A DNA stretch of 64,000 nucleotides, from positions 736,001 to 800,000 of the forward strand of contig CBDBKE010000004.1 of assembly GCA_965206645.1 (NCBI GenBank). The letters are read 5' to 3'. Source of the stretch: Terriglobia bacterium. Its GTDB lineage: Bacteria > Acidobacteriota > Terriglobia > JAJPHL01 > JAPKYU01. A program made the position numbers and the translations under genes. The notes below the pieces were generated by a model, which did not search any database, had not been told where the DNA came from, and saw nothing but the letters and a program-made list of their open reading frames with translations. This document shows positions 19,778 to 57,877 of the stretch, piece by piece (the stretch's first letter is position 1; each line of letters starts with the position of its first letter).

Positions 19778-20052
19778 AAGTTTCCCTGTGCCACATCCCG
19801 CAGTACCTGCTTCTCCAGAGAAAGCTCCGCTACCAACCGCTTCAGCCGCGTGTTTTCCTTCTCCAACTCCTTTAGCCGTTTTGCCTGCACCACCTTCAGC
19901 CCGCCGTATTCCTTCCGCCACCGGTAGTAGGTTTGGGTGTGGATTCCAGCTTCTTTGCAGGCTTGGGGCGCAGTCTTCCCGTTCCCCATCTGCACTTCTA
20001 TCTGCCGTAGCACCGCTACAATCTGCTCCGGCTTGTAACTCCTTGTCGGCAT
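19774..20052 (-). CDS. IS3 transposase OrfA (HTH)
   Basis: TYYRWRKEYGGL...LKELEKENTRLKRLVAELSL. Confidence 0.9.
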   Translation of the reverse strand: MPTRSYKPEQIVAVLRQIEVQMGNGKTAPQACKEAGIHTQTYYRWRKEYGGLKVVQAKRLKELEKENTRLKRLVAELSLEKQVLRDVAQGNF

Positions 20053-20144
20053 GACCTCACTTCCTCCTCAAGTGGATTCTCTCTCTTTCCACTTGGTACA
20101 AAAAGTGCCGGTCAGGTCACTGTTCATCTGCAAATCCCTGCAGC

Positions 20145-22067
20145 TCAGTACCGGTCGCCGGCGCCGTTGCCCAACGGAAGCGCCAGCGTAAATTTCGAGC
20201 CGCGGCCCGGCCCGCTCTCCACCAGCACCGTGCCGCCGTGGTGGCTGGCAATTTCTTTCACGATGGAAAGCCCCAGCCCCAACCCCGGCTGCCCGGAGCC
20301 CTGGGCGTTTTCGCTGCGATAAAAACGATCGAAGATGCGAGCCTGATCAGCAGCCGCGATTCCGGGGCCCTGATCGCTCACCTCCAGGAAGGCCATACCC
20401 AGGTCCGCGTTCGCGCGAACCGTCACCTCGACCGCGCTGCTTTCCGGTGAATACTTGATGGCGTTGCTCAGCAGATTATACAGTGCGAATTCCAGCAACT
20501 CGGAATCGCCCACGGTCTCTAGTTCCCCGCTGGTCACCGCCCGGACTTGGATGTTCTTGCGTTCGGCCAACGGCTGGACCCTTTCCATGGTTCGTTCCAC
20601 CAAGGACCGCAGCGGCACCGATTGACGGCGCAACTCCATTTCGCCCGCCGAGAGACGCTCGACGTCCAGAAACCGTTCCACCAGCGTGGCCAGGCGTCGC
20701 GACTCGCGGTGGATGAGCTCGGTCAACTGCTGCCGCCGGGCCTCATTCAACGGGTATCGACTCATGACTTCGCTGGAGCCCTGGATGGCAGTCAGCGGCG
20801 AGCGCATCTCGTGGGCGACCAGATCCAGGTGGTCCCGGAAGCGCCGGCTGGTCGCGTCGGCGGCCACAAGACGACGCCAGACGGTCAGGTACTGGAAGAT
20901 GCCACCGACCAGCAATGGTCCCCACAAGGCCAGCGAGAAGGAGAAGGCGGGCGCGAGCAGTTGCCGGCTGGTGAACAAAACGTAAGGCACGGTGTGCGCG
21001 GCAACGGCAACGACCGTCAGGGCCACAGCCAGCCAGACGCCCGTGAGCGTCCGCAGCGCCGCCGCCACCACGGCGGCGATGCCCGCCATGATGGCAAGCG
21101 ACGTTGTCGCGCGCAGCGGCTCGAGGAAGCTGTCGGTCATCAACATGTGGAGAATATGGGCGTGGATTTCCACGCCCGGCATGCCACGGCCCGGACTGGA
21201 AAACGGCGTGAACAGGCGGTCGCCTGCCCCCTGCGCCGTCACCCCGAGTAGTACTGCCCGGCCGGCAAAAGTGTCCGGCGTCAGTTCTCCCGTCACTACC
21301 TGACCGAGGCTGTAGCGGGGAAAAACTCCCTCGCCACCGGCGTAGTTGATCAGCAGCGCGCGCCGGCGCTCACGCGAAGCGGGAATCATATGGCTGCTCA
21401 CCGCCAGCGTGCGCTCGTCTTCGACGACCGGCCCGCTCTGGCCGGTTTGGATGCGTAGCGCTTCCAAGGCAAGCGCCCAGCGCCTCTCGCCCGCGACGGA
21501 CTTGGCCAGCAGGATCCGCCGGCTGACCCCATCCAGGTCAGGATCCGCATGCACATGCCCGATCGCTGCGGCCGCCTCCGCAAAGGATGGGAGCGGGTGG
21601 AGCCAGCGCGCCGGGCGCGGATCGGCAGGATCTTTCTTAACCAGTGGCTTGACCGGTGGCTTGACCAGTGGCTTAACCAAGCCGCCGGCCAGGACCGTCT
21701 GCGGGCAAGCCTGCAGGGCGGCAAGCAGCGCCTGGTCTCCTTCCGGGTTGGAGGGCTCGGGAAACAACAGGTCCAGTGCGATCACATTGGGACGGCCGCT
21801 ACAAATGCGCGTCAAAGCAGCCGCCACCAGACTGCGGTCCAGCGGGAGATTCCCGAAGCGCGCCAGGGTTTCGTCATCAATGGCCACAATGGCAATGCGC
21901 TCGACACCCGCCTTCTGTTCGCCCCGCAGGCGAAACAACAGGTCGGCGGCGTACTGGTTCATTTGCGCTCCGTAGGCGCTCCAGCCTAGCGCGGTTACCG
22001 CGAGCAGGCTGAGCGTAACCAGCACCGTGAAACCCAGCAGTTGAGATAAAGAATGCTTCGAACGCAT
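20145..22067 (-). CDS. CHASE2-domain sensor histidine kinase
   Basis: IVAIDDETL, MPGVEIHA, HEMRSPL, NLLSNAIKYS, DQGPGI, GLGLGL. Confidence 0.92.
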   Translation of the reverse strand: MRSKHSLSQLLGFTVLVTLSLLAVTALGWSAYGAQMNQYAADLLFRLRGEQKAGVERIAIVAIDDETLARFGNLPLDRSLVAAALTRICSGRPNVIALDLLFPEPSNPEGDQALLAALQACPQTVLAGGLVKPLVKPPVKPLVKKDPADPRPARWLHPLPSFAEAAAAIGHVHADPDLDGVSRRILLAKSVAGERRWALALEALRIQTGQSGPVVEDERTLAVSSHMIPASRERRRALLINYAGGEGVFPRYSLGQVVTGELTPDTFAGRAVLLGVTAQGAGDRLFTPFSSPGRGMPGVEIHAHILHMLMTDSFLEPLRATTSLAIMAGIAAVVAAALRTLTGVWLAVALTVVAVAAHTVPYVLFTSRQLLAPAFSFSLALWGPLLVGGIFQYLTVWRRLVAADATSRRFRDHLDLVAHEMRSPLTAIQGSSEVMSRYPLNEARRQQLTELIHRESRRLATLVERFLDVERLSAGEMELRRQSVPLRSLVERTMERVQPLAERKNIQVRAVTSGELETVGDSELLEFALYNLLSNAIKYSPESSAVEVTVRANADLGMAFLEVSDQGPGIAAADQARIFDRFYRSENAQGSGQPGLGLGLSIVKEIASHHGGTVLVESGPGRGSKFTLALPLGNGAGDRY

Positions 22068-22314
22068 GCAGGCTGATCTGGAATCGCCCTAATTCGTCTT
22101 CATTGTACCAGAGGCGCCAGGTTGGTAGCAGACGCTGGTCTATCGGGCGCAAAGACTACAAGACCGCCCAGTTCGGCGAAAGCAGGCACCGTGGAGACCA
22201 AACCTTCCAAGCCTGAACAGGCAGGGATGCCTGTCCCCAAGATTAGGCAGTGCGCCAGTTTCCGGTATGCCGACTATTCGCCCAACTGAAGCCGGGCCAA
22301 CTGAAGCCGGGATT

Positions 22315-22342
22315 GATAAACGCTAGCCCGTTAGTAGGGACT
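22315..22342 (+). other. Putative recombination site A (class 1)
   Basis: GATAAACGCTA-GCCCGT-TAGTAGGGACT followed by TATCCGGCA. Confidence 0.7.
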
Positions 22343-22412
22343 TATCCGGCATTCCTGGACATGCGACCCGGCAGGCTGTAGCCTTGGTCAATCGCTTTCC
22401 AGGAGGGCAGCC

Positions 22413-25351
22413 ATGCGCAGGTCCTTGATTCGTAGCGTGGGGCCGGGAATGGCGCTGCTAGCGCTCGGGCTGCTAGCCATCGCGGTGCTGGAGCTGGGTT
22501 CCGACCCTAGCCTTGCCGACAAGCCATACTTCCCAGCAAGAACTCCCGCGGCCAACAAGCCGCAGGTTGTGGAGAACTACGGCAAGCTGCCGCTGAGCTT
22601 TGAAGCCAATCAGGGCCAGACCGACAGCTGGGTGGACTTCCTGTCGCGGGGAAGTGGCTACACGTTGTTCTTGACCCCTACTGAGGCCGTGCTTGCTTTG
22701 CGCAAACCCACTGCGTCTGAGGTTGGCGCTGCGTCTGAGGTTAGCAAGGTTGAGGTGGCAAGGTTGAGAGCAACTCGGACACGGAGGAAGCGGTGCTGCG
22801 CATGAAGTTGGTTGGCGCCAATCCATCGTCTCGGGTATCAGGGCTTGAGGAGCTTCCCGGCAAGAGCAACTACTTCCTGGGAAACGACCCAAAGAAATGG
22901 CGCACCAACGTCCCACATTACGCCAAGATTCAGTACAAGGACGTCTACCCGGGCGTGGACTTGGTTTATTACGGCAACCAGCGGCAGCTGGAGTACGACC
23001 TGATTGTCACCCCCGGAGCCAATCCTGAGGCTATCCAGCTCGCCTTTGAGGGTGAAGATGACCTGGAAATAGATGCCCAAGGCGACCTGGTGCTCGACAG
23101 CGACGGTGGTCAAGTCCGCCTGCACAAGCCGTTTGTCTATCAGCAGGTAGACGGTGTTCGGCAGGAAATCTCCGGGGCCTACGTGCTCAACGGCGGCCGC
23201 CAGGTCAGCTTCGAGGTGGCCGCGCATGATGTCGGCAAGCCTCTCATTATTGATCCTGTGCTGAGCTACTCCACCTACCTCGGCGGCAGTGCCAGCGGCA
23301 CCAACGAGACTGGCTTCGGCATCGCCGTGGACGTCTCCGGTAACGCTTACGTGACAGGGCAGACAGCTTCGACTGACTTCCCGACGGCGAGTCCCCTCCA
23401 GGCCGCTCACGGCGGCGGCTCTGACGACCTCTTCGTAACCAAGCTCAACGCCGCAGGTTCCGCCCTCCTCTACTCCACCTACCTCGGCGGCAGTGGCCGT
23501 GACGAAGGCCTCAGCATCGCGGTGGACGCCGCCGGCAACGCCTATGTGACAGGCTTTACCAGGTCGACCAACTTCCCCACTGCCAGCCCCTTCCAGGCCG
23601 CTCATAGCGGTGGCGTCAATGATGTCTTCGTGACAAAGCTAAATCCCGACGGCTCTGCTCTCGTCTATTCCACCTACCTCGGCGGCACTTCAAGTGAGGA
23701 AGGCACCGGCATAGCGGTAGACGTGACCGGCAACGCCTACGTGATAGGCTCGACGAGATCGGCGAACTTCCCCACGGCGAATCCCTTTCAGGCCACAATT
23801 GGCAGCACCTTCGATAACTTCGTAACGAAGCTGAACGCTGCCGGCTCCGCCCTGGTCTACTCCACCTACCTGGGCGGCACCGACTTTGAAACGGACGCCG
23901 CCATCACCGTAGACTCCTCCGGTAACGCCTACGTGACGGGCACCACCATGTCGACCGACTTCCCCACGAGCTTCGGAGCTTTTGACACAACCTTAGGCAC
24001 AGATGGCAGTGGTAATGGTGGCATCGCCGACGCTTTCGTAGCGAAGTTCAATGCCGCCGGCTCCGCTCTCGTTTACTCCACATACCTTGGGGGCAGCAGC
24101 CTAGACGAAGGCCTCGACATTGCCGTGGACGCCGCCGGCAACGCCTATGTGACAGGCTCTACCAGGTCGACCAACTTCCCCACTGCCAGCCCCTTCCAAG
24201 TAGTTTTTAACGGCCCCATCGACGCATTCGTGACGAAGTTGAATGTTGCCGGCTCCGCCCTGGTCTACTCCACCTACTTGGAAGGTGCTGGGTCTCGCAC
24301 CCGCATCGCAGTAGACGCCTCCGGCAACGCCTACGTGACGGGCATTACCCCCGGGGGCCTCCCCACGGCGAATCCCTTTCAGGCCACTCACGCCGGCTTC
24401 GGCGACGCCTTCGTAATGAAGTTCAATGCTGCCGGCTCCGATCTGATCTACTTGAGCTACCTCGGCGGCAGCAACCAAGATTCAGGCCGTGGCATCGCTG
24501 TGGACTCCCTGGGCAACGCGTACGTGACAGGTACCACCGATTCGACCGACTTCCCGACGGCGAGTCCCCTCCAGGCAGCTCACGGCGGCGGCCAGTTCGA
24601 CGCATTCGTGGCCAAGATCACCATCCCCCCAACCCTGCCAACCAACTCCGTGGTCAACGGCGCCAGCTTCCGGCCGGCCGCGGAGGCGAATTCGGTCATC
24701 GCTCCGGGCGCGATAGTGGCCATTTTCGGGACGGACCTGGCGGGCGGTATCGAGGTAGCAACGGACGTACCACTTCCCACCACGCTGGGAGATACCAGCG
24801 TGACCTTCGATGATATTGCGGCCCCGCTGTTTTTCGTGTCGCCTACGCAGATCAATGCGCAGGTCCCGTTTGAGCTGATGACCGGGACGGGGATGGTCAT
24901 GGTGCAGGTGAGGCGGGGCAGTGAAACGAGCGAGGCGCAGCCGATCGGGATCGCGGCCGTATCGCCGGGCATTTTTACGCTGAACGAGCAGGGCACCGGC
25001 GCCGGGGCAATCCTTCACGCGGAAGACTTCCAGCCGGTGAACGACAGCGCCCCGGCACAGCCGGGCGAGTTCATCCTCATCTTTTGCACTGGGCTCGGTT
25101 CGGTACAGCCCGAAGTCCCATCCGGCGATGTTGCCCCCAGTACGGAGCCTCTGGCGCGAACCGTTACCCTACCAATGGTGAACATCGCTGGCATAGCCGC
25201 CGACGTGGCCTTCTCCGGCCTGGCCCCAGGGTTTGTGGGGCTCTACCAGGTGAACGCGCAGGTGCCGGCGGGTGTCCCGGCGGGTACGCAGGAGGTGGAA
25301 ATCCTCGTTAACAACGTGCCGGGTAACACCGTCACCATCGCCGTGCAGTAG
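22413..25351 (+). CDS. Secreted SBBP beta-propeller repeat protein with Solibacter-type C-terminal domain (frameshift near 22770)
   Basis: AGGAGG RBS; PLSFEANQGQ; repeated YSTYLGGS..D.G.GIAVD..GNAYVTG; C-terminal GFVGLYQVNAQVP. Confidence 0.88.
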
Positions 25352-25411
25352 CCTGCTCCGCCTCGGTCCAAGTCTCTAAGTACAAGACGCTTGCCTCAGA
25401 TTCAGCGGATA

Positions 25412-25439
25412 GGTCCCCACTAGTCGGTTAGCGTCTTCC
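25412..25439 (-). other. Putative recombination site B (class 2)
   Basis: Minus strand GGAAGACGCTA-ACCGAC-TAGTGGGGACC then TATCCGCTGAATCTGAGGCAA. Confidence 0.7.
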
Positions 25440-25465
25440 CGCTCTCTGTTCGTTCTCAAGAAACG

Positions 25466-25495
25466 AAAAGCCGCACCCCTTTGGGGATGCGGCTT
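25466..25495 (-). terminator. Rho-independent terminator downstream of the aldo/keto reductase
   Basis: AAGCCGCACCCC-TTT-GGGGATGCGGCTT hairpin followed by a T run on the minus strand. Confidence 0.6.
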
Positions 25496-25558
25496 CATGA
25501 TCTGACTCAACTTGAAAGCGATCCAGGCAAACAAGCCCGCGCAGGTCCGCAGCTGCCG

Positions 25559-26524
25559 CTAGTCGCCCTGATAGGCGGGGCGCGGCGGCCGGTAGTCCGC
25601 GGTCTTGATATTACGCTTCCAGGTTTCCAGGTGCGGGCCGGCGATCGGCTCGGCGCGCTTGCGCAGCGCGCTCATCTGGGTATCGCCGATGGGCTTGAAC
25701 CGCTGAGCAAAGCGCACGTCGTCTTCGATCTGGCCAACCGTTGTCGCGCCCAAAGTCACGCAGTGGATCGGCAGGCTCAGCACGTAGGCCAGACAGTCGT
25801 TCAGGCTCATGGTCTGCAACAGCTGGGCATTCGCCGTGCTCTTCATGGCCTGGATGCCCAAGCCTTGCTTGATCGCCTCGGGCAGGACTTTGGTCTCGAA
25901 GCTGAGGTAGGAGGGGTCGGCCGGGTGGAGCGGCATCAAGATCGTGTCGAAGTTCTTGTAACTCCGCAGCATCTCCAGGTGCGCAGCGGGGTCGTTGTGG
26001 CCGGTGAATCCGATAAAGCGGCACTTGCCGGCCTTCTTCGCCGCCTCGAACGCCTCGATGGCGCCGCCCGGAGCGAAGATCTTCTGCAAGTCTTCGTCGC
26101 TTTCGACCGAGTGAATCTGCCAGAGATCCACGTAGTCGGTCTTGAGCCGCTTGAGCGAGAGGTGCAGCTCTTCCTCGGCTTCTTTGCGCGTGCGCTTGTT
26201 TGACTTCGTGGTGATGAAGATTTCTTTGCGGAACGGCGGCATGACCGCCCCATAAACTTCTTCCGAGCGGCCATCCCAATAGCCGTGCGCGTTATCGAAG
26301 TAGTTGATGCCCAACTCGTAGGCTCGCAGAGTGACTTGCTTGGCCTCCTCGAACGAGATCAGCGGGAAACGTCCCCCGGCCTGGCCGACGATGGTGAGCT
26401 TTTCGCCGGTTTTGCCAAAGACCCTGGTCGGAATGTCGCCCGCTTCGAGCTTGCTCGCCCGAGCCGAAGTCCCGAGGACGGCGACGCCAGCCAGCGCGCT
26501 ACCCACAAAAGTTCTGCGATTCAT
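25559..26524 (-). CDS. Tat-exported aldo/keto reductase
   Basis: MNRRTFVG twin-arginine signal; GINYFDNAHGY, SLKRLKTDYVDLWQIH, RFIGFTGH. Confidence 0.9.
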   Translation of the reverse strand: MNRRTFVGSALAGVAVLGTSARASKLEAGDIPTRVFGKTGEKLTIVGQAGGRFPLISFEEAKQVTLRAYELGINYFDNAHGYWDGRSEEVYGAVMPPFRKEIFITTKSNKRTRKEAEEELHLSLKRLKTDYVDLWQIHSVESDEDLQKIFAPGGAIEAFEAAKKAGKCRFIGFTGHNDPAAHLEMLRSYKNFDTILMPLHPADPSYLSFETKVLPEAIKQGLGIQAMKSTANAQLLQTMSLNDCLAYVLSLPIHCVTLGATTVGQIEDDVRFAQRFKPIGDTQMSALRKRAEPIAGPHLETWKRNIKTADYRPPRPAYQGD

Positions 26525-26658
26525 AAATCCTCCCGTGAACAAGACTGCATGGGGACCATGCTGCCGCATCTGGCAACGAATTGATTCGTCTGTTTGTCAG
26601 GCGCCATAGCGGCTTCAAGTGTATCAGCCGGAGACAGTTGGCCAAGTGTCGCTGAACA

Positions 26659-26686
26659 AGTCCCCACTAATCGGTTAGCGTTTACT
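26659..26686 (-). other. Putative recombination site C (class 2 variant)
   Basis: Minus strand AGTAAACGCTA-ACCGAT-TAGTGGGGACT. Confidence 0.7.
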
Positions 26687-26721
26687 TATCCACGTCGCAC
26701 CGCCCAGGCAGGCAGAACATT

Positions 26722-26749
26722 GGTAAACGCTAGCCCGTTAGTGTGGACC
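26722..26749 (+). other. Putative recombination site D (class 1)
   Basis: GGTAAACGCTA-GCCCGT-TAGTGTGGACC then TATCCGGCAACGCTGGTGACAAGGCGG. Confidence 0.72.
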
Positions 26750-26780
26750 TATCCGGCAACGCTGGTGACAAGGCGGCAGG

Positions 26781-27266
26781 TCACTTCGGCGGGTTCTCTT
26801 CAACGATGTCCGGCTTGAGCTTGCCGATGATCGTGAGCAGCTCCTCCTTCTCCTTGGCGGGCACCTTGAATTTGTCCAGCGTATCCACCAGGTGGTCCAC
26901 AACGACGTTGAACTCTTTCTCTGTGATGCCCAGCCCTGCGTGAACGGTCTTGGCATCTCGGCTGATGACCTTGCACGGCCCACCCGTGACGTTGCACACA
27001 AGATTGATGTTCTTCTGGATGAACGACTTCCGGGTGTCCGTACCCATCCCCTTGAAAAAAGGTCCGACCTTGGGATCGGTAAAGAGCTTCTCGGCGAAGT
27101 CGTTCACCACCGCTGAGATCGCTCCGTAGCCGCCGAGTCTCTCGTAGAGCGACTTCGTGTGGCTCTCAGCTTTTGTCAAAACCGGTACCGCGAGCAGCAA
27201 GAAAAGCGCCGCCACCGTCACGCCGAAAAAAGCAGAGTTCCTTGATTGTTCTCGAATGGTGTGCAT
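26781..27266 (-). CDS. Group I truncated hemoglobin with signal peptide
   Basis: SLYERLGG, VTGGP, HAGLGITEKEFN; hydrophobic N-terminal signal. Confidence 0.88.
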   Translation of the reverse strand: MHTIREQSRNSAFFGVTVAALFLLLAVPVLTKAESHTKSLYERLGGYGAISAVVNDFAEKLFTDPKVGPFFKGMGTDTRKSFIQKNINLVCNVTGGPCKVISRDAKTVHAGLGITEKEFNVVVDHLVDTLDKFKVPAKEKEELLTIIGKLKPDIVEENPPK

Positions 27267-28522
27267 GTCTTTCTCCTTGTCCAAGATTTCCTTTTTGGCC
27301 GTTTCTGATTTTCCGTTTCCTGCTGGCACGATTGTACGCTATCTACTTCGGTTCTTGCTACTGAAGCGGGTAGGCGCTCAGCACAAAATCCTTGCCTGGA
27401 AAATGGCAGCCAAAGCAGAGCGGGACGCCGTTACCAGCCGCCACCGGATTGGCACCAGAGGTAGTGCTGACGACCTCGTACCAAAACCAACCCTTGCCCC
27501 TGTCACTCTCGGCTTGCGTTTTTACCATGACCGCCCAGCCCTGAAGCTTGCCATTCCCGTCGTACATTTCCTTCACAGAGGCGGAGCCAACGGGGTGGGA
27601 GGTGCTACCCGCCCTCAGCGACGCATCGAGCTTGGGGTCCAAGAACACCCGGACCGGCCAGCCAAACTTCGTGTGCGGGCCACGCGTGGGGTGCGCGGCT
27701 GATTCCTTAGCGAATTGCTTGTATGAGCCGTCCCGCAAGTACTTGAACAGACGGTCTTTGTCGGTCGGAATCAGGCTATCCACACTGGCGCCCTCCGCGG
27801 TGGGCTCCAGGGCGGTAGCCATTGCACCGGACATGGCGCCTGCCATCTTCTTGAATTCCTCCGAGCGGCTGTCCATGGCCCGACCGCTCTTTGCCCCCTT
27901 GGCTGCTCGGAGCACCGGGTAGTATTGTGTGAAGACAAAATCCTCCGCAGCGCTGGCTGCGTGACAGGCGTTGCAAGCCCCCGCGGGAAACTTTTCTGCG
28001 GTGTCGGCCAGCGGATAGGAGTGACCAAAGCTGAAGTAGGCCCAGTTGCCGGGCTCATCCGGGAAGCGTTTGGAGTCCTTGATGGTGGCCTCCAATCCGA
28101 TGAACTCGCCCATGAAATAGCCCTTGCGCTGGTGGCCGCCTTCGAGCCCACACTGACCAACTCCTTGACCAGAATGGTGCCCTGGGGGAATTTCCCTGTC
28201 TTTTTGTAAGCTGCAAAATCGTCGGGATGGATGTATACACCAGGATGCGGTATCGCCCGAGCGGCCGGCCGACCATGGGCGAGAAGCCTCCCTCTTGGGA
28301 GCCATGCTACGCCCCACCCCCAGGCAAGTCAATGCGGCGACGGGGTAGGCTATACGAAGGGGCAAAGTGCTACACCCCCGCCACCCCGAGGAGCGCCACC
28401 CGTCACGGGCGCGTGCGCTCTCGGGACCGGAGACAGGAGCTTCCAAAAGTGCCCCCCCTGGCGCGCCTCCAGGTGTACCCCTGGACTCTAAGGCAAAGGA
28501 TCAAATATACTTTAAGTCCCCC

Positions 28523-28620
28523 ATGGGACGATTGAAGGCGATTTCCCTGTTCAGCGGCTGCGGAGGAAGTGACCTTGCACTCGAACGCGCGGGTTTCAAG
28601 ATCGTTTGGTCAAATGATAT
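28523..28620 (+). pseudogene. 5' fragment of a DNA cytosine-C5 methyltransferase
   Basis: MGRLKAISLFSGCGGSDLALERAGFKIVWSNDI (motif I FxGxGG), cut at the IS end. Confidence 0.8.
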
Positions 28621-30268
28621 CCGGAATTTCCTTTTGGGCCTTCCGGCGATTAAAAATATACACGCATCTGCGTCCCAGCGAGTACAATGTTTTCTCCGAG
28701 AGGACCATCGGCTCCGAGCGTCCCTTTCGGGGTCCCCTAAAACCGTCCAATCAGCATCCAAACCCAGCTTTTTCAGACAACTCTCCATACCTGGGGGATA
28801 GCGGCATCGTTTTCTTGTGTGCCGTAGCCCAGGCTATCCCGACGGGAGTGCCCATCCATCGATCCGCCCCAGCATGCTGGCAAACAGCCGTCGGGTCAAA
28901 TGGCCCTCGGCCAGCAGGAGCCAGTAGTACCGTGAGTGTTTTAGGAGCCGTCCTCCGGTTTTCACCAGCCGCTGCTGGAGGCTCGTCAAGGACCACTTCT
29001 CGATTCTCTGTGGCAGCACTAGCCGTCGCCATAGGTTGCCCAGGTTGTAGGCGATGATCGTCAGCCAAAGCCGTACCTCGTTAGATCGGAACTTGTGGCA
29101 ACTGAGCCGCGTCATCTTCACCGCCTGCTTGCCTTCCTTGATCCACTGTTCTGCGGTGCCGCGCTTGTTATAGAATCGCACCACCGCCCGATTCGGCAGC
29201 GTCAGATTCGTTACAATGAACCCCACTCGCGGGAACAACTCCCCGGAATGATGCTCTACTTTCGCCACCACCCTTCGAGCCGTCTTCCAACTGGCTGCCT
29301 GGTACAAGAACCCCTTGTACTCGACCAGCGGTTTCTTGGTGGGCCTTCCCACGGGGCGTTTCAGTAGCTCTTCGATGTCTCGCTGCAGAATATCGTTGGC
29401 CGGGATGCGAATTGCGTACTTCACACCCCGTTCCTCCAATGCCTCGTACACCTCCGGCTTGGCAAAGGCCGCGTCCGCCCGAAACGCAATCTCTTTTCCC
29501 ATTCTTTCCTGGCGCTCAATCTCGGGTAACAGGAGTTTCTCCCAACCCTCGGCACTGTGCACGTTGCCCGGACGCAGCTGGGCCGCCAGACAGTTGCCGT
29601 CTCGATTGAACAAAAGCAGCGGGTGATAGCAAGTGGACTCGAAGTGCCCGTTGTAGGCGCTCTGTTCCTGCTCCCCGTAGACCGGAATCTCGGTTGAGTC
29701 CATATCCAGCACCGCTCGGTAGTGCCACTGGAAGGCTTCGACCTTTCCGATCAGTTCCCGGTTGATCCGGGCTAACCCGACGAAGTTCTCCACCTTCGCC
29801 AGCATCTCCGTCTCGAAAGTTTGCAACCTGGAGGTCAGCGCCGCGCCTCGTTCCCAAGTCTTCTCTGAACCAATCAGCTGAAAGGTCGGGTCTTGCGACA
29901 GCCGCTCGGCATCATTTACATCCTCGTATCCAGCTAGGCGACTGTAGACCGACTGCCGCAGCAAGTCCGCGAAAGAAAACCGAGCATTGTTTGCCCGCGA
30001 ATCGGTCAAGTGCTCGTCAATGAGTTCGCTGAATCCCAGACGCTCATCCAACTCCCGGACCAGAATCAGTCCACCATTGGAAGTCACCCGTGATCCCTGA
30101 AACCCGACTCGCAGAAATCGGTTGAACGACAGCTGAAATCCCTGTTTTCCGCTCTCACCCATTGAGTTTACGCCTCCGAACGCTCCGATTGATGCTGCAA
30201 CCAGTATCAATATTGACGTTGGAGGTTAGCTGAAGGTTGCCGCTGCGTTTTCAAAAAGGAAATCCGGG
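28621..30268 (-). mobile_element. IS1380-family insertion sequence
   Basis: Inverted repeats CCGGAATTTCCTTTTG (28621) and CAAAAAGGAAATCCGGG (ending 30268). Confidence 0.9.
28834..30162 (-). CDS. IS1380 DDE transposase
   Basis: TSNGGLILVRELDERLG, AGYEDVND, LDMDST, RADAAF, YNKRGTAEQWIKEGK. Confidence 0.93.
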   Translation of the reverse strand: MGESGKQGFQLSFNRFLRVGFQGSRVTSNGGLILVRELDERLGFSELIDEHLTDSRANNARFSFADLLRQSVYSRLAGYEDVNDAERLSQDPTFQLIGSEKTWERGAALTSRLQTFETEMLAKVENFVGLARINRELIGKVEAFQWHYRAVLDMDSTEIPVYGEQEQSAYNGHFESTCYHPLLLFNRDGNCLAAQLRPGNVHSAEGWEKLLLPEIERQERMGKEIAFRADAAFAKPEVYEALEERGVKYAIRIPANDILQRDIEELLKRPVGRPTKKPLVEYKGFLYQAASWKTARRVVAKVEHHSGELFPRVGFIVTNLTLPNRAVVRFYNKRGTAEQWIKEGKQAVKMTRLSCHKFRSNEVRLWLTIIAYNLGNLWRRLVLPQRIEKWSLTSLQQRLVKTGGRLLKHSRYYWLLLAEGHLTRRLFASMLGRIDGWALPSG

Positions 30269-30772
30269 ATACATTGTGGAAATCGGGGAAAGCAGCTTCA
30301 GGTGGATTCATGTCGTTCGGGGTAATCGGCGTACCGATATAGACCCACTCCCGGTAGCCTGTGGGTCGCATGAGTTTACCGTCCGCAGTGAAGCTGGGTT
30401 TCGACTTCCCACCATGCGAACTGGGCGGGGTCGCCGCAAATGTCGTCACAAACAGGGACACGACCATAACCAACGCTACGATGCTGGCGAAGGTGCGAGT
30501 GATACGACGGGACCTAATCGAACGACTCATTCCGTGCCTCCTCTAACCAGGACTTCCGACCTGAGCTTCCTCTTCGCCCGAAGCCTACGGTAGCTGCCCT
30601 GCCGCATCAAGCTCGAATGCGCCAGCCTCTTTTGGAGGCGCCAGGGCCGTTTGGGGCCATTCAGCGGATTTGTCCGGTCCGTTTTCCCGCCTCCAACCTG
30701 CCTCGCTGCCAATGCTTTCTCAGGCGGCAGTAATTCTCTGAAACGGCAAAAGTTGCCTCAGATTCGGCAGAT

Positions 30773-30800
30773 AGGTCCCACTAGTCGGTTAGCGTTTACC
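30773..30800 (-). other. Putative recombination site E (class 2)
   Basis: Minus strand GGTAAACGCTA-ACCGAC-TAGTGGGACCT then ATCTGCCGAATCTGAGGCAA. Confidence 0.72.
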
Positions 30801-30889
30801 TATGCTGCCACGCAGCCCACATGGCCGTAAAACGCCCTTGCCGGAAACTGACCCACTACTCAAAATTAGGAAAGCGGTACCATGAGAGC

Positions 30890-31483
30890 ATGGCGCTCCC
30901 AGAGCGGGTGCGTGTGAAGCTGATGTCGGACGCAGCCGAGGACATCAGCATGACACGCGTGATGCAGCGCGACTTTCCCATGGCGGAGCTGCTGGAGGCG
31001 GTGGTGGCTGTGGGCGGCAAGAATCCCGAGCGCCTGCACCAAATCCTGCGGGCAGGCAGCATGGTGCTGGGCCAGTATCGCTACCGCTGGGAGCCACTAG
31101 AGGCTGACGCCACAGACCTGGCGCCGTTGCTGGCCCGCTTCCCCGACCCTGAGCCGGACCGGCCCTTTCAGGTTGAACGATGCGTCTATGCTACCGTCCA
31201 CGCAGGCGTAGAAACGATCGAACTGCGGCGCGAGCAGGTGGCCCGCCGCCGCTGGCTCCAGAAGAGAAGCTTTTGGGAAACACTCATGGAAGTGGCGGCA
31301 GCGCGCGCGCCGCGCTACCAGTCCTACTCCTACCGCAACCGCGCCGACGTCTACGCGTTCGAGCCCACGCAGGAGGATGTCGAGCGCCTGCGCGGAGCAG
31401 CGACCTTGCTGCACGCGCCCCGCACTGAAGAGCGCATCCGCATCTTGCCTCTAGAGAAGGTGACGCTGCTGGTCAACCGATAA
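30890..31483 (+). CDS. Hypothetical protein
   Basis: Clean ORF with host-like codon usage, upstream of the GTPase. Confidence 0.7.
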   Translation: MALPERVRVKLMSDAAEDISMTRVMQRDFPMAELLEAVVAVGGKNPERLHQILRAGSMVLGQYRYRWEPLEADATDLAPLLARFPDPEPDRPFQVERCVYATVHAGVETIELRREQVARRRWLQKRSFWETLMEVAAARAPRYQSYSYRNRADVYAFEPTQEDVERLRGAATLLHAPRTEERIRILPLEKVTLLVNR

Positions 31484-31547
31484 GGCATGAGGCTTACGAC
31501 CTATAAGACTGAAGACTGGAGATTGAAAACCTGACCCCTGTCTTGTC

Positions 31548-32552
31548 ATGCCGGCCAATCTGACCCCTGAATACCTGGCAGCCGAACAGCGGTTCAAAGC
31601 GGCCAGGAGCATCCCGGAGAAAATTGAGGCGTTGGAGGAGATGCTGTCCGCCATCCCCAAGCACAAGGGGACGGAAAAGATGCAGGCCGACCTGAAACGG
31701 CGCCTCTCCAAGCTCCGGGGCGAGGCGCAGAAAAAGGGCGGCACAGCGCGAACGCTGCCGATTTACCACGTCGAGCGAGAGGGCGCCGGCCAGGTCGCCC
31801 TGGTCGGTGCGCCTAACGTAGGCAAGTCACAGCTGGTGCGCCGGCTGACCCACGCCCGGCCCGAGGTGGCTGATTACCCGTTCACCACGCGTCTGCCCAC
31901 CCCCGGCATGATGCCGTTTGAAAACGTGCAGTTCCAACTGGTGGACCTGCCTCCGGTGTCGGACCAGTTCATGGAGAGCTGGGTGCCTACGCTGGTGCGG
32001 CAGTCCGACGCAACGGCTCTGGTAGTGGACTTGTCCGCCGACGACCTGCTGGAGGAGGTGGAAACCACGCAACTGCTTCTAGGGAAGCAAAACGTCCGTA
32101 TTGGAGTGCCGACCACGGCCGCCCCCGCGTTGGGAGCGGCCGTGAAGCGCACGCTGTTGGTGGGCAACAAGGTCGACCAACCCGGTGCTGAGGGAAATTT
32201 CGCCGCGCTGCGCGACCTGCTGGAGGAAAGTTCAACCGGCTGGTGTGCGGTCACCATGGTGGCGATATCGGCGGAAACAGGCGCCGGACTGGAGACGTTC
32301 AAGCGCGCCGTGTTCGACCTGCTGGAAGTGATCCGCGTCTTCACCAAGGCTCCCGGGAAGAAGCCCGACCTTGCGGCGCCTTATGTACTGAAGCGCGGCT
32401 CCACTGTGTTCGAAGCCGCCCAGCACGTGCACAAGGATTTTGCTTCCCAGCTCAAATTCGCCCGCATCTGGGGACACGGCAAGTTCGGAGGTCAGATGGT
32501 CCAGCGGGACTACGTGCTGGCTGACGGAGACATCCTCGAGCTCCACATCTAG
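31548..32552 (+). CDS. DRG/OBG-family GTPase with TGS domain
   Basis: GAPNVGKS, YPFTT, DLPP, NKVD, C-terminal TGS (LADGDILE). Confidence 0.9.
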   Translation: MPANLTPEYLAAEQRFKAARSIPEKIEALEEMLSAIPKHKGTEKMQADLKRRLSKLRGEAQKKGGTARTLPIYHVEREGAGQVALVGAPNVGKSQLVRRLTHARPEVADYPFTTRLPTPGMMPFENVQFQLVDLPPVSDQFMESWVPTLVRQSDATALVVDLSADDLLEEVETTQLLLGKQNVRIGVPTTAAPALGAAVKRTLLVGNKVDQPGAEGNFAALRDLLEESSTGWCAVTMVAISAETGAGLETFKRAVFDLLEVIRVFTKAPGKKPDLAAPYVLKRGSTVFEAAQHVHKDFASQLKFARIWGHGKFGGQMVQRDYVLADGDILELHI

Positions 32553-32680
32553 GTTGGTATGCAGTCCCAGACATTCGTCACTTGAATCAGCGACTTTTTC
32601 AAAAGAGTCATCAGAAACCAGGATTAAGAAAATGTATGTGCGCGCCAGGAGATCAGCCGGCGGAGCAGGCATCGCTTGGG

Positions 32681-32860
32681 CTAGCCGTGGCCGAACCTCA
32701 TCAACCAGCCCAGGACGAACACCACACCCAGGAAAGCGGCAAAGCACAAAGCTCCGTAGGTCAGGCGTTCGCGGATCGTGTCCTTGCTGATCACCGCGAA
32801 CACGACGGAGGTGAAGAAGGCGAAAATCGTCGCTGCCTGAAGATGAGTCAGGTTGAGCAT
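32681..32860 (-). CDS. Small two-TM membrane protein (59 aa)
   Basis: Manual translation MLNLTHLQAATIFAFFTSVVFAVISKD...GWLMRFGHG*; continues the minus-strand operon. Confidence 0.65.
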   Translation of the reverse strand: MLNLTHLQAATIFAFFTSVVFAVISKDTIRERLTYGALCFAAFLGVVFVLGWLMRFGHG

Positions 32861-32892
32861 CGGCCAGCTTCCATCAAACGTTTACCGGCAGG

Positions 32893-33300
32893 TCAATCCT
32901 TTCTCCTCATCGCGATGTCATAGGCGTCAAGCATAGCCAGGGCGTTGAGCAAGCCTGCCGTCAACAGGAACTTGGTGCCGTAGTCGGCAGCGGCAGAGGG
33001 TGGTTCCGGCATGTCATAGCTGAAGAATTTGGCCACCAGGTAGAGACCGCCGGCACCCAGGTCCGCCAGCCAGGCCAGCGTGTCCACGATGTCGCCGGGG
33101 TTATAGCGATACATCTTGCCGCGCATCGCCAGTCCCAGCAAGAACATTGTGACGACCGAAACCAGCAGCAGCGCGCCGCGTCCCCATTTCCGCTGCCAGA
33201 AGTGCCCGCCGCCGGGCACGAGCCAGCCCGCCAACACTGGCAAATAAGCGGCATAGTTTCTTTTTGCGCGCTCCGTTGTTTCAGATTTCTTGCTCATCAT
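32893..33300 (-). CDS. Hypothetical membrane protein
   Basis: AGWLVPGGGHF...AGLLNALAMLDAYD; overlaps the upstream stop. Confidence 0.75.
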   Translation of the reverse strand: MMSKKSETTERAKRNYAAYLPVLAGWLVPGGGHFWQRKWGRGALLLVSVVTMFLLGLAMRGKMYRYNPGDIVDTLAWLADLGAGGLYLVAKFFSYDMPEPPSAAADYGTKFLLTAGLLNALAMLDAYDIAMRRKD

Positions 33301-56154: not shown

Positions 56155-56290
56155 GCTCTGCCCAGCCTCCTGATAAACGAACCTCCAGTATAGCGGAAAA
56201 CCCCCTGGTTTCGCTACGCTCCCGGGCGCGTAGTGGGTCAATTTACGGTAAGGGCGTTATACCGGCCAAGTGGGGCTGCGTGGCAGCATA

Positions 56291-56318
56291 GGTAAACACT
56301 AACCGACGAGCGGAAACC
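56291..56318 (+). other. Putative recombination site F (class 2, degenerate right arm)
   Basis: GGTAAACACTA-ACCGAC-GAGCGGAAACC then TATCTGTCGAATCCGACGCAA. Confidence 0.62.
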
Positions 56319-56543
56319 TATCTGTCGAATCCGACGCAAATCCTTTCGTTCCAGAGAGCTGGGTTAGTGGGGCCCCGATAGCTTGGGGACGCGGCGGCAT
56401 GTTGATCGCGGTGGAAGCCGCCGCCGCTCCCCGCTTCGGAACAAGCGCTGCGGGAGGCAGCGATCCGCGCCGCCATCATTGGCCGCATCCGCCGGGCAAA
56501 ATTCGCCGAAGTGCTGAACTGGCTCCGCCCTTGGTGTGGCTGC

Positions 56544-56804
56544 CTAAACCGCTGCCGGCTCAACAGAACCGCTTGGCGCATGCGGTGGCACAGAAGCGGG
56601 GGATTTTTTCGTGCGGCGCTTTGGAGGTGCAGGCTTGGAGGGAGCTCCTCCGGGCAATAGTTCGACCATCATGAGACTGGTGACGAACTTCTTGATGCCG
56701 TGGAGATCGAAGTCTATGATGGTGCGTTCGGGATTAGCTTCAGTGACTACACCGAGGCCGTACTGTCCATGCTTAAGATACTGAGCTTTCCGGAGAACTT
56801 GCAC
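56544..56804 (-). CDS. Small protein resembling a stand-alone UvrD/PcrA C-terminal Tudor-like domain
   Basis: GTG start after AGGAGG; LKHGQYGLGVV...IDFDLHGIKKF; basic Pro-rich tail. Confidence 0.6.
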   Translation of the reverse strand: MQVLRKAQYLKHGQYGLGVVTEANPERTIIDFDLHGIKKFVTSLMMVELLPGGAPSKPAPPKRRTKKSPASVPPHAPSGSVEPAAV

Positions 56805-57051
56805 GAAACCTCCTTGACCAACCCGGACACCGGCCGGCCTGAGAACAGCCGAATCGTAGCTTAGAGACGCCGGCTGGTGGTTCAGTATTAGGGCCTAGCG
56901 AAGTTGCAGTCAGCGCCCTACGATGGGAATTCCTTACCTTGTAAGTATACCAGGGATGTCTCGAAAACGGGTACTGAAAAAGACGATTTGTTGAGTCCGA
57001 AAGCACGTGGATTCTAGACGTATAGTTTTTCTCCACATCCTTGTCGTACTG

Positions 57052-57060
57052 TGTTATACT
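57052..57060 (+). promoter_or_regulatory. Extended -10 promoter element for the RRM gene
   Basis: TGtTATACT; a divergent TGgTATACT lies on the minus strand at 56944-56952. Confidence 0.4.
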
Positions 57061-57234
57061 GCCACGCGTATTTGAAGAAGTCGGTTTGTCTGAAAGCATT
57101 TACCTCTATCGTTTGCTTCCTGCCCAATTGACTCCATCAAATTCCAGATAGCCGGTCTCCAGCAATGTGCTGACGGCCGGGTACGCGACCGCTCCGCACG
57201 GGCGCAGCGGCAACTTTCAAGGAGACAAAGAGAA

Positions 57235-57534
57235 ATGAAAAGCTTGTATGTCGGCAACATGAGTTTTAACACCACGGAGAGTGATCTGCGGGCTATCTTT
57301 GAGCCGCTCGGAGAGATCACGCGCATCAATGTAATCACGGACCGGGACACAGGCCGGGCTCGTGGCTTCGCTTTTGTTGAGATGTCCAATGACGAGGAAG
57401 CGGCCAAGGCAATTGGGGCAGTGAATGGAAAAGAGCTGGACGGCCGCGCCCTGAACGTGAACGAAGCGCGCCCCAAGACGGAGGGGGGCGGGTCCCGGAA
57501 CAGAAGTGGAGGATATAACCGAGGCGGCTATTAA
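57235..57534 (+). CDS. RRM (RNP-1) RNA-binding protein with Gly-rich tail
   Basis: LYVGNM (RNP2), RGFAFVEM (RNP1), VNEARPK. Confidence 0.95.
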   Translation: MKSLYVGNMSFNTTESDLRAIFEPLGEITRINVITDRDTGRARGFAFVEMSNDEEAAKAIGAVNGKELDGRALNVNEARPKTEGGGSRNRSGGYNRGGY

Positions 57535-57722
57535 CCCGCGTACTAATTTACCGCACGACGCGCCAGGCCAGGGTGCTTGAACGGGTGGACACCCCCATCT
57601 ACTGACGTCGATGGGCGAGTCACCGTAGCAACCCGGCCCGTCGCGCCGGTGGTCTTCCGCTGCCCAATTGACGGAGTCCAAGCGGCAGGAGAACACCGCC
57701 TTGTCACCAGCGATGCCGGATA

Positions 57723-57750
57723 GGTCCACACTAACGGGCTAGCGTTTACA
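57723..57750 (-). other. Putative recombination site G (class 1)
   Basis: Minus strand TGTAAACGCTA-GCCCGT-TAGTGTGGACC then TATCCGGCATCGCTGGTGACAAGGCGG; near-identical to site D. Confidence 0.72.
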
Positions 57751-57877
57751 ATCCCGGTTTCCGTTGGGCCCGGTTTCCGTTGGGCGAATAGTCGGCTTCT
57801 CGGAAACTGACCCACTGTCGAGCGCTTCAACGCCGAGGGGCACAGGCTTCGGCACCGGCCAGATGCCCGAAACGGCT

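What the first reader, a model, noticed from the sequence alone, without database searches (positions are those of the whole stretch)
22246..30860. Transposon shell carrying a recombination-site-delimited gene cassette array (candidate new gene-capture system)
Seen: ~20-bp terminal inverted repeats (consensus GGYAGTGGGTCAGTTTCCGG) bound an 8.6-kb region flanked by an 8-bp near-duplication (CAAGATTA / CAAAATTA). Inside are five copies of one 28-bp site, ordered A(+,22315), B(-,25412), C(-,26659), D(+,26722), E(-,30773). All five lie between genes and separate the cargo: SBBP protein (A-B), aldo/keto reductase (B-C), globin plus P460 (D-E). The only transposase present belongs to the nested IS1380, and no recombinase is encoded. 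Knowledge: TIRs with 8-9 bp duplications are typical of Mutator-like DDE elements (IS256/ISKra4/ISLre2 type); 11+6+11 sites typify tyrosine recombinases (dif/pdif modules). Inference: a non-autonomous element moved in trans by a DDE transposase, with cargo loaded or exchanged by a tyrosine recombinase, analogous to integrons or pdif arrays but using a different site. I do not recognise it as a described system.
Basis: partly seen in the sequence, partly recalled or inferred. Interest (0 to 1): 0.92.

Follow-up and report, generated by a model that had tools for sequence, protein, structure and literature searches.

The report
Transposase-less IS1-type multi-cargo transposon
This 8.6-kb block is a real jumping-gene shell of the IS1 family that has no transposase of its own and carries several unrelated genes, one of about forty such shells in this soil bacterium; the repeated 34-base sites inside it are a shared end-module of that family, not shown to be a new recombination system.

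Summary
Observation confirmed. The 20-bp inverted ends, the 8-bp near-duplication and five copies of one site are at the stated places. A sister species (G003) has the empty target with a single CAAAATTA.

Interpretation partly supported. The shell is a non-autonomous transposon, but of the IS1 family, not Mutator/IS256. In G000 and G032, elements with near-identical ends (GGTAGTG...CAGTTT) and 8-bp duplications encode IS1-type transposases. The IS256-like IS of this genome has different ends.

The site is a 34-bp 14-6-14 dyad in two classes, present about 80 times in G000 and found in 4 of 4 genomes of the genus. It is the inner part of the family's 120-150-bp conserved ends. It also occurs without the outer repeats, and back to back between cargo genes.

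I found no link to tyrosine recombinases (5 of 36 within 5 kb, 4.4 expected) or to RAYT genes. No cassette gain or loss was seen exactly at a site.

Best reading: a mobile insertion cassette (MIC) made by fusing units, with cargo probably swapped through the long homologous ends. What the sites do remains unresolved. The scan has found IS1-type cargo cassettes before in other genomes. I rate it a new variant of a known kind.

The parts
22238..22245 (.). Left copy of the 8-bp target duplication (CAAGATTA)
   Evidence: G003 has one CAAAATTA between the same flanks.
22246..22311 (+). L-end outer module: TIR-L (22246-22265), conserved AAGCCGACTATTCGCCCAACTGAA spacer, and a 15-bp tandem duplication
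22312..22351 (+). Site A, class t1 (spacer GCCCGT), followed by a conserved tail to about 22365
22413..25351 (+). DUF7948/SBBP/TIG secreted-type protein gene, read in two frames (22413-22805 and 22793-25351)
   Evidence: Some contigs of runs X22 and X23 have an extra G behind 22756.
25405..25438 (-). Site B, class t2 (spacer ACCGAC), with no TIR beside it
25559..26569 (-). Aldo/keto reductase gene
26652..26758 (.). Back-to-back junction J1: site C (t2, minus, 26652-26689), spacer of about 30 bp, site D (t1, plus, 26719-26758)
   Evidence: The same junction type occurs at 6 loci of G000.
26781..27329 (-). Bacterial-like globin gene. Its stop codon lies in the conserved tail of site D.
27358..28239 (-). 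3' part of the cytochrome P460 gene, cut by the IS
   Evidence: The G001 gene is intact at 379 aa.
28240..30268 (-). Nested IS1380-family IS (transposase 28834-30210) with a 5-bp duplication ATACA
   Evidence: The IS-less joint 28234>30269 is seen in runs X22 and X23.
30269..30530 (-). 5' part of the P460 gene
30766..30803 (-). Site E, class t2
30804..30860 (-). R-end outer module: spacer plus TIR-R (30841-30860)
30861..30868 (.). Right copy of the target duplication (CAAAATTA)
56229..57816 (-). Second element of the same family in the window: TIR-R 56229, t2 56288-56326, RRM-type RNA-binding cargo gene 57235-57534, t1 57714-57749, TIR-L to 57816

Best explanation
The region 22246-30860 is a composite, transposase-less member of a genus-specific swarm of IS1-family derived cargo transposons (mobile insertion cassettes, MICs).

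How it moved. An IS1-type DDE transposase supplied in trans recognised the two ends (GGTAGTGGGTCAGTTTCCGG type). It inserted the block at CAAAATTA with an 8-bp duplication. This happened after the lineage split from G003.

What the sites are. The five 34-bp sites are not a private recombination system of this element. They are the inner module of the family's long ends. The left end is TIR-L, about 50 bp, then t1 and its tail (about 120 bp in all). The right end is TIR-R, about 40 bp, then t2 and its tail (about 130-150 bp).

Inferred steps:
- The internal copies B and C/D are seams where single-cargo units were joined: SBBP; AKR; globin plus P460. The joining would be by tandem arrangement with loss of the internal outer repeats, or by recombination between the long homologous ends.
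- Exchange of cargo between shells runs through these 120-150-bp homologies, or through transposase acting on them. No dedicated tyrosine recombinase is involved.
- The 14-6-14 dyad most likely binds a protein of the transposition machinery.

Later event (shown). An IS1380 element landed in the P460 gene.
For: Insertion:
- G003 joins the two flanks with one CAAAATTA.
- G001 has the same right end at the same place.

Family size and grammar:
- G000 has 78 TIR-end hits and about 80 sites.
- The order is fixed: TIR-L, t1 51-67 bp further in, cargo, t2, TIR-R 57 bp further out. There are 17 TIR-bounded pairs, 11 TIR-R/8-bp/TIR-L junctions and 6 t2/t1 junctions.
- The end probe hit 4 of 4 genomes of the genus and 1 of 37 other relatives searched.

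Cargo:
- It is diverse and mostly one gene per unit: hydrolase, methyltransferases, kinase, RRM, S4, TPR, FHA, GNAT, cNMP-binding, HNH.
- In 9 of the 14 units searched no second near-identical stretch turned up. In 2 the hits were nested ISs. One hit a further repeat (57 places). Two had part of their cargo in a second copy at 91-95% identity.

IS1 assignment. Autonomous relatives have like ends:
- G000 C4:1910685-1912760: TIR GGTAGTGGGCTACTTT, duplication GCCCGCCT 8 of 8.
- G000 C4:1596644-1600092: TIR GGTAGTGTCTCAGTTT, duplication 7 of 8.
- G000 C2:14855-19502: TIR identical over 17 of 17 bases, transposase broken by an IS1380 copy.
- G032 L094:185-2368: TIR GGTAGTGGGCCAGTTT, duplication CCCCGCTG 8 of 8.
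- Their transposases hit PF03400 DDE_Tnp_IS1 above its cut-off (35.3, 30.5 and 26.5 bits against 24.1). NF033558 IS1 is the best NCBIfam hit.

Mobility of a whole unit: the RRM unit of the window lies at another locus in G003. C2:777119-778525 has an 8 of 8 duplication, AAAGCGAG.

Ends conserved as one block: conservation stays high from the TIR through the site and drops at the cargo.

Sites as boundaries rather than expression signals: 59 of 62 are intergenic. Cargo points away from the site in 35 cases and towards it in 27.

No recombinase link.

Published background: IS1 is listed among families with circular intermediates whose abutted ends are highly active (passages of bioRxiv 10.1101/2023.06.07.543989). 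MICs are named as IS derivatives that a cognate transposase can activate (passages of PMC3129680).
Against: - No intact transposase whose element has exactly these ends was found in G000-G003. The only element that matches 17 of 17 is broken.
- NF033558 scores (54-87 bits) are below its 100-bit cut-off.
- About half of the TIR ends have no t site, and about 25 sites have no TIR. The two modules are therefore separable, and the sites may have a life of their own.
- The resemblance of the site's right arm to the TIR is not significant. The median best TIR-matrix score is -8.9, and 24% of random 70-nt windows do as well.
- Of the 10 elements whose flanks I read, 3 have an 8 of 8 duplication, 2 have 7 of 8, 1 has 6 of 8 and 4 have none.
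- The fusion of units and the homologous exchange are inferred, not observed.
- At the same target, G002 has a different interior and a TIR only 80% alike. That genome is 62% complete and fragmented.
Confidence: 0.55

Rival explanations
1. The 34-bp dyads are sites of a site-specific recombinase (a pdif-like or new system). It loads, excises or inverts cargo modules inside a transposon shell.
For: - The site is a 14-6-14 dyad in two spacer classes (GCCCGT and ACCGAC) with class-specific flanks.
- Modules are flanked by inversely oriented sites, as in pdif modules (pdif layout recalled).
- Sites occur without TIRs and back to back between cargo genes.
- Sites are intergenic regardless of cargo direction.
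- Shells with like ends carry different cargo. G002 C209 is 91.8% alike over TIR-L plus t1, with homology ending 7 bp behind the site.
Against: - No recombinase is encoded in the element.
- 5 of 36 PF00589 hits lie within 5 kb of a TIR or site, against 4.4 expected.
- The 2 Y1_Tnp hits are not next to sites.
- Inverted sites give inversion, not excision or integration of circles.
- The two classes differ at 4 of 6 spacer positions, which should block strand exchange between t1 and t2 by a tyrosine recombinase (general knowledge).
- Differences between genomes that I could resolve did not break at sites. G001 breaks inside the AKR gene and inside the cargo gene of C2:144948-147938.
- Serine recombinases were not searched.
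Confidence: 0.15
2. The sites are the terminal repeats of a second, separate family of non-autonomous transposons (t1...cargo...t2 units). These units are nested in, or sit beside, the IS1-type shells and are moved by an unidentified transposase.
For: - t1...t2 units without outer TIRs exist: C2:144948-147938, C1:264437-265327, C4:1928352-1928995 and C4:2194201-2195644.
- The inverted orientation around cargo is the hallmark of transposon ends.
- Tandem units give J1 junctions, just as tandem shells give J2 junctions.
- The best TIR-matrix hit falls at one fixed place and direction in 24 of 59 sites.
Against: - No target duplication is seen next to the sites. The sequence outside the sites is itself conserved.
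- I found no empty site for a t-unit.
- No transposase gene is bounded by t sites in the four genomes searched. The strict site pattern gave 0 hits in the metagenome collection.
- In the full ends, the TIR and the site are conserved as one block.
Confidence: 0.15
3. The sites are operators or structural sites for a host DNA-binding protein, for example a regulator or silencer of accessory genes. They travel with the elements but have no role in mobility.
For: - The t1 core holds a 5-6-5 palindrome, AAACG-CTAGCC-CGTTT.
- One unrelated metagenome sequence, seen in two contigs (L111 and L113), has 30 of 31 bases of the left and centre part of t1 without the right arm. It lies about 75 bases upstream of a possible start codon behind a GGAGG.
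Against: - Distances from sites to the next start codon range from 27 to 1294 bp with no peak. 27 of 62 sites face gene ends.
- The sites sit at both ends of cargo units at fixed distances from the TIRs.
- There is only one independent outside match. The loose pattern's 4 hits are within what chance could give in a collection of that size (my estimate, not computed by a tool).
Confidence: 0.08

Closest known systems
Mobile insertion cassettes (MICs), e.g. MIC231 of the Bacillus cereus group, and 'transporter IS' (tIS)
   Same: - IS-type inverted ends and a target duplication, with passenger genes.
- No cognate transposase inside; mobilisation in trans by a related IS.
- MICs and tIS are named in PMC3129680 and PMC9330008 (passages). 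The MIC231 example is recalled.
   Different: - The ends come from the IS1 family.
- The family is unusually large (17 TIR-bounded pairs and 78 end hits in one 4.4-Mb genome).
- The ends are long (120-150 bp) and in two parts.
- Units form arrays with conserved junctions.
- One shell can hold several cargo units separated by internal copies of the inner end module.
IS1 family insertion sequences (single-ORF, passenger-carrying members)
   Same: - The transposases of the autonomous relatives hit PF03400 and NF033558.
- The ends start GGTAGTG, which fits the family's GGnnnTG (recalled from ISfinder).
- The duplication is 8 bp.
- The autonomous relatives here carry passengers: an HTH plus peptidase M78 protein, and a Bro-N protein.
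   Different: - The window's element has no transposase.
- The transposases fall below NCBIfam's IS1 cut-off, so they are distant members.
- I do not know of the 34-bp dyad module in IS1 elements (recall; no paper found).
Mosaic non-autonomous transposons built by Tn3-derived miniature elements (TIMEs), PMC4133298
   Same: Transposase-less elements with conserved ends mobilise neighbouring DNA. They give composite, mosaic cargo elements that shuffle modules (abstract read).
   Different: - A different transposase family (Tn3) with 5-6-bp duplications and 38-bp ends.
- There the composites are bounded by whole miniature elements. Here the seams are a 34-bp dyad module.
pdif modules of Acinetobacter plasmids (XerC/XerD sites)
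   Same: Modules flanked by inversely oriented copies of a short dyad site with a 6-bp centre. How the modules move is unclear (recalled).
   Different: - The sites are not shown to be Xer sites.
- They are chromosomal and tied at fixed distances to transposon ends.
- Neighbouring modules have two sites about 30 bp apart rather than one shared site.
- No enrichment of tyrosine recombinases.
Tandem IS dimers and IR-IR junctions of copy-out-paste-in elements (IS30, IS21, IS1 circles)
   Same: The J2 junctions (TIR-R, 8 bp, TIR-L) look like abutted-end junctions, which are reactive transposition substrates (abstract of PMC9333248 in the listing; passages of the preprint).
   Different: - Here the junctions sit stably in the chromosome at 11 or more loci with a conserved spacer (CTGGCGGG type).
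- They lie between transposase-less units.

Membership tests
IS1-family derived element | Ends like those of elements that encode an IS1-type DDE transposase | tested here: met
   Four TIR-bounded elements have GGTAGTG...(C/T)AGTTT ends and encode proteins that hit PF03400 above its cut-off. NF033558 is their best NCBIfam hit, though below its cut-off. One of them shares 17 of 17 end bases with the cargo elements.
IS1-family derived element | Target duplication of 8-9 bp (family figure recalled) | tested here: met
   The window has 7 of 8, with the single target in G003. 8 of 8 was seen at C2:777119-778525, C4:1910685-1912760 and the G032 element. 4 of the 10 elements read have none.
IS1-family derived element | Terminal bases GGnnnTG (recalled from ISfinder) | tested here: met
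   The left end is GGCAGTG. The right end reads AGTAGTG, so its first base deviates. The family consensus is GGTAGTG.
Mobile insertion cassette | No cognate transposase inside, with passenger genes between IS ends | tested here: met
   Pfam scan of 8 ORFs of the element. The only transposase is the nested IS1380 type, PF13701.
Mobile insertion cassette | Mobilised in trans by a related IS | not testable with these tools
   Only insertion polymorphism between species is seen.
   G000 has 10 PF00872 hits, and G001, G003 and G032 have 17. The two IS types have ends GAGAGTGTCTCACC... and GAGTCAAGCCC.... No TIR of this family was found in the 12 loci scanned.
Integron cassette array | intI integrase with attI next to the array, and cassettes in one orientation each with one attC | tested here: not met
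   No integrase in the element. Cargo direction is mixed, 35 against 27. Sites flank cargo in inverted pairs.
pdif / Xer module system | Sites recognisable as XerC-6-XerD dif-like sites acted on by Xer recombinases | not tested
   I made no comparison with this genome's dif site. I tested only the lack of recombinase enrichment.
pdif / Xer module system | Modules bounded by inversely oriented sites | tested here: met
   A(+)...B(-) and D(+)...E(-) in the window, and t1(+)...t2(-) genome-wide.
REP/BIME with RAYT | Repeats flank a Y1 (RAYT) transposase gene | tested here: not met
   There are 2 PF01797 hits, at C4:710078 and C4:115872. The nearest site listed is 9 kb away.

The most novel reading that the evidence does not exclude
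The 34-bp 14-6-14 dyads in two spacer classes are working recombination sites of an undescribed cassette system that lives inside IS1-type shells. Single-gene units bounded by t1 and t2 would be exchanged, stacked and inverted at these sites, by the IS1-type transposase acting on junction-like dyads or by an unlinked recombinase. That would give this genus an integron-like pool of about forty portable genes per genome.
Probability: 0.17. Interest if true: 0.85.

Novelty: new variant of a known kind. Interest (0 to 1): 0.5.

Why it matters
Transposase-less cargo transposons are known but little studied. In this genus one IS1-derived family carries dozens of different single genes per genome. 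It forms arrays and multi-cargo composites with a fixed grammar, which makes it a compact natural system of gene shuffling in a soil phylum whose mobile elements are poorly known.

If the inner dyad module proves to be a working site, it would show a second way, beside integrons and pdif modules, to assemble gene cassettes. If not, the case still shows how long homologous ends can turn simple cassettes into composite elements. It also corrects the family assignment and separates what is shown (transposition) from what is not (site-specific cargo loading).

Tried and rejected
- **Rfam scan of 20000-33000:** only one weak sub-threshold hit outside the element. No known RNA explains the sites.
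- **RNA or single-strand hairpin idea:** t2(-)/t1(+) pairs give three G.T wobbles on one strand. This rests on three transitions only, so the chance that they fall on one strand is 0.25 (my arithmetic). Dropped, and no fold was run.
- **TIR-likeness of the site's right arm:** not significant with a position matrix.
- **IS256-like and IS1595-type transposases:** present in G000. The Mutator-type ISs have ends of their own. The one end of this family near an IS1595 gene (C2:894507) is the outer end of a neighbouring cargo unit, and the gene lies outside that unit.
- **IS1380 ends** (CCAGGATGCGG / CCCGGATTTCC, 5-bp duplication) are unrelated to the sites.
- **Empty sites for TIR-less t-units:**
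  - The C2:144000-149000 and C4:1926000-1931000 queries gave only untidy differences: a deletion inside the cargo gene in G001, and a different join in the fragmented G002.
  - The G002 contig C92 join could be read as a large rearrangement ending at two sites, but it comes from a 62%-complete assembly. I do not count it.
- **Reads:** only Logan contigs were available.
  - The joints 22355>26766 (A to D) and 25404>30777 or 25256>30807 (B to E) have 30 bases or fewer on one side and lie in repeats. They may come from paralogous elements and are not evidence.
  - No raw reads were available, so circles could not be sought.
- **Metagenome scans:** the strict site pattern gave 0 hits and the loose pattern 4 hits. 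Only one sequence (L111 = L113) goes beyond the pattern.
- **The second element of the window** has no clean duplication or empty site. G003 lacks it together with 1047 further bases.
- **Papers:**
  - The ISfinder-type review I wanted for the IS1 family figures was not held, and 'ISMhu11' gave 0 papers. GGnnnTG, the 8-9-bp duplication and the 6-9-bp spacer of IS1 circles are therefore recalled.
  - Supplements were not opened.
  - I found no paper on such arrays in Acidobacteria in the searches. That does not show that none exists.
- **Not done:** serine recombinases (PF00239), the dif site of this genome, structure prediction, and complex prediction.

Full report
**1. The observation**

- TIR-L is at 22246-22265 and TIR-R at 30841-30860. 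They match at 16 of 20 positions.
- They are flanked by CAAGATTA and CAAAATTA.
- Five copies of one site lie at 22312-22351 (+), 25405-25438 (-), 26652-26689 (-), 26719-26758 (+) and 30766-30803 (-).
- A 34-base consensus with up to 3 mismatches finds 3 places in the window and none in 100 shuffles.

Pfam confirms the cargo: a DUF7948/SBBP/TIG protein read in two frames, an aldo/keto reductase, a globin, a cytochrome P460, and a nested IS1380-type transposase. No other transposase or recombinase is encoded.

In G001 the IS is absent and the P460 gene is whole at 379 aa. The IS therefore splits P460 in the window. The weak PAP2 hit of the 107-aa ORF was spurious. The IS-less joint is also present in contigs of two public runs.

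**2. It is a real insertion**

The window lies in a 4.41-Mb genome of four contigs.
- In the sister species G003 the two flanks are joined, with a single CAAAATTA.
- G001 has the same right end at the same place.
- G002 has a left end at the same target, read there as CAAAATCA.

So the 8.6-kb block was inserted as a unit with an 8-bp duplication.

**3. The repeats belong to a large family**

The site is not private to this element. nhmmer finds 100 rows at E<=10 in G000, about 80 after weak and overlapping opposite-strand rows are removed. It finds 78 terminal-repeat hits.

The site comes in two classes:
- t1: ...AAACRCTA GCCCGT TAGTGGGG...
- t2: ...AAACRCTA ACCGAC TAGTGGGG...

The grammar is strict. 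TIR-L is followed 51-67 bp further in by t1. The cargo comes next, then t2, and TIR-R lies 57 bp further out.

Counts in G000:
- 17 TIR-bounded pairs.
- 11 junctions in which a right and a left end abut across a conserved 8-10 bp (CTGGCGGG type).
- 6 back-to-back t2/t1 junctions without TIRs, of which C/D is one.

Roughly half of the TIR ends lack a site, and about 25 sites lack a TIR.

In ends that have both, conservation runs unbroken from the TIR through the site and its tail. This covers about 120 bp on the left and 130-150 bp on the right, and conservation falls at the cargo.

The end probe hit all 4 genomes of the genus and 1 of 37 other relatives searched. In G001 and G003 the 18-base TIR pattern has 25 and 29 matches, against 0 for the control pattern.

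**4. Cargo**

The units carry unrelated genes, mostly one each: alpha/beta hydrolase, methyltransferases, Ser/Thr kinase with TPR, RRM and S4 RNA-binding proteins, TPR, FHA, GNAT, cNMP-binding and HNH proteins, and proteins of no family.

Second copies are few. In 9 of the 14 units searched no second near-identical stretch turned up. In 2 units the hits were nested ISs, and one unit hit a further repeat at 57 places. Two units have part of their cargo in a second copy. The RRM gene has a 95% copy outside any element, which looks like a captured or donated resident gene. Part of the cargo of C2:144948-147938 has a 91% copy at C4:2165358-2166365.

The RRM unit of the window (56229-57816) lies at a different locus in G003.

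**5. Which transposase**

All PF00872 genes of G000, G001 and G003 belong to two IS types with ends of their own.

The trail to the right family came from a broken gene in C2:14855-19502. The ends of that element equal the family's TIR over 17 of 17 bases. Its relatives in G000 (C4:1596644-1600092 and C4:1910685-1912760) and in G032 (L094:185-2368) share four features:
- They are complete elements with ends of the GGTAGTG...(C/T)AGTTT type.
- They have 8-bp duplications (7 of 8, 8 of 8 and 8 of 8).
- They carry passenger genes.
- Their single-ORF transposases hit PF03400 above its cut-off, and NF033558 (IS1 family) is their best NCBIfam model, although below its cut-off.

The ends fit the IS1 family's GGnnnTG and its 8-9-bp duplication. 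Both figures are recalled, because the review I wanted was not held.

The shell is therefore an IS1-family mobile insertion cassette. MICs and transporter ISs are in print (passages of PMC3129680 and PMC9330008). This scan has met IS1-type cargo cassettes in several other genomes.

No intact transposase with exactly these ends was found in the four genomes.

**6. What the 34-bp sites are**

The tests gave mostly negative answers.
- They are boundaries rather than expression signals. 59 of 62 are intergenic. Cargo faces away from the site in 35 cases and towards it in 27. Distances to start codons are scattered.
- Tyrosine recombinases are not enriched near them: 5 of 36 within 5 kb, against 4.4 expected.
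- The two Y1 transposase genes are not flanked by them.
- The right arm of the dyad looks like the TIR by eye (16 of 22), but a TIR matrix does not score it above chance.
- I found no target duplication next to the sites and no empty site for a TIR-less unit.
- Where genomes differ, the breakpoints I could resolve lie inside genes, not at sites.
- At the window's own target, G002 has a left end only 80% alike, against 95% for the flank. It has a different interior that starts about 10 bp before the place where t1 begins in G000. Another G002 element (C209) has ends 92% and 83% like the window's, but other cargo.

This pattern fits exchange between elements through their long homologous ends. 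It does not prove that, and G002 is a fragmented assembly.

Contig joints A>D and B>E in public runs rest on 30 bases or fewer and are not evidence.

**7. Reading**

The best-supported account has two parts.

Shown: an IS1-type transposase acting in trans moved a shell.

Inferred:
- The shell's long ends include the dyad module.
- The shell in the window is a composite of two or three single-cargo units, and the internal sites are the seams.
- Arrays and composites arise from tandem units, loss of internal outer repeats, and recombination between the ends.
- The abutted-end junctions resemble the reactive junctions of copy-out-paste-in elements, among which IS1 is listed (passages of the preprint; abstract of PMC9333248 in the listing).
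- Mosaic non-autonomous transposons built by miniature elements are a published parallel for another family (abstract of PMC4133298).

The rival readings are not excluded: true recombination sites, ends of a second element family, or a host-protein operator.

**8. Verdict**

The outer element is an ordinary kind, a MIC of the IS1 family, in an unusually rich and regular genus-wide swarm. The inner dyad module and the multi-cargo arrays are not described as far as my searches show. I rate it a new variant of a known kind, of moderate interest. There is a modest chance (about one in six) that the sites mark a real cassette-exchange mechanism.

Noticed in passing
window 28240-30268; genome-wide: An IS1380-family IS splits the cytochrome P460 gene here. 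It is absent in G001 and in contigs of runs X22 and X23. Its terminal region has 50 matches in G000. Copies sit inside at least 7 of the cargo elements listed.
   Followed up: partly
window 22756-22805: The SBBP/DUF7948 gene reads in two frames. Some contigs of runs X22 and X23 have an extra G behind 22756, so the gene may be whole in related strains. Here it is either frameshifted or mis-assembled.
   Followed up: no
window 56229-57816; G000 C4:1187872-1188465; G003 C1:969720-971192: The second element of the family carries an RRM-type RNA-binding gene. That gene has a 95% copy elsewhere in G000 outside any element. The whole unit sits at another locus in G003.
   Followed up: partly
G000 C4:428762-430199 and 8 other places: A 1.44-kb IS256-family IS (ends GAGAGTGTCTCACC... 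/ GAGGGTGTCC...) is present in 9 copies at about 99.8% identity. One copy is nested in a cargo element. Another interrupts a second Mutator-type gene at C4:1542111.
   Followed up: partly
G000 C4:1596644-1600092 and C2:14855-19502: The autonomous IS1-type elements carry passengers typical of defence or phage contexts: an HTH_3 plus peptidase M78 (IrrE-like) protein with a HigA-type hit, and a Bro-N domain protein.
   Followed up: no
G000 C3:900512-913689 against C3:182829-196006; C1:260684-270085 against C4:1-9400: Two large near-identical duplications reach contig ends (99.985% inverted over 13.2 kb; 99.55% over 9.4 kb). They may be true repeats or assembly artefacts, and they inflate some counts by one or two.
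   Followed up: no
L111 and L113 (metagenome contigs), around L113:2935-2959: An unrelated sequence of 54-57% G+C holds 30 of 31 bases of the left and centre part of the t1 site, without the right arm. It lies about 75 bases upstream of a possible start codon behind a GGAGG.
   Followed up: partly
G003 C1:1128954-1131282 (L019:2955-5270): Next to the empty target, G003 has its own insertion of an IS1380 relative (78% like the window's copy). This intergenic spot has been hit by different elements in different species.
   Followed up: no
G001 C2 (L018:4725-15640): G001 has replaced window 18786-26286 (histidine kinase, left end, SBBP and part of the AKR gene) with about 10.9 kb. Most of that DNA has no counterpart in G000.
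   Followed up: partly
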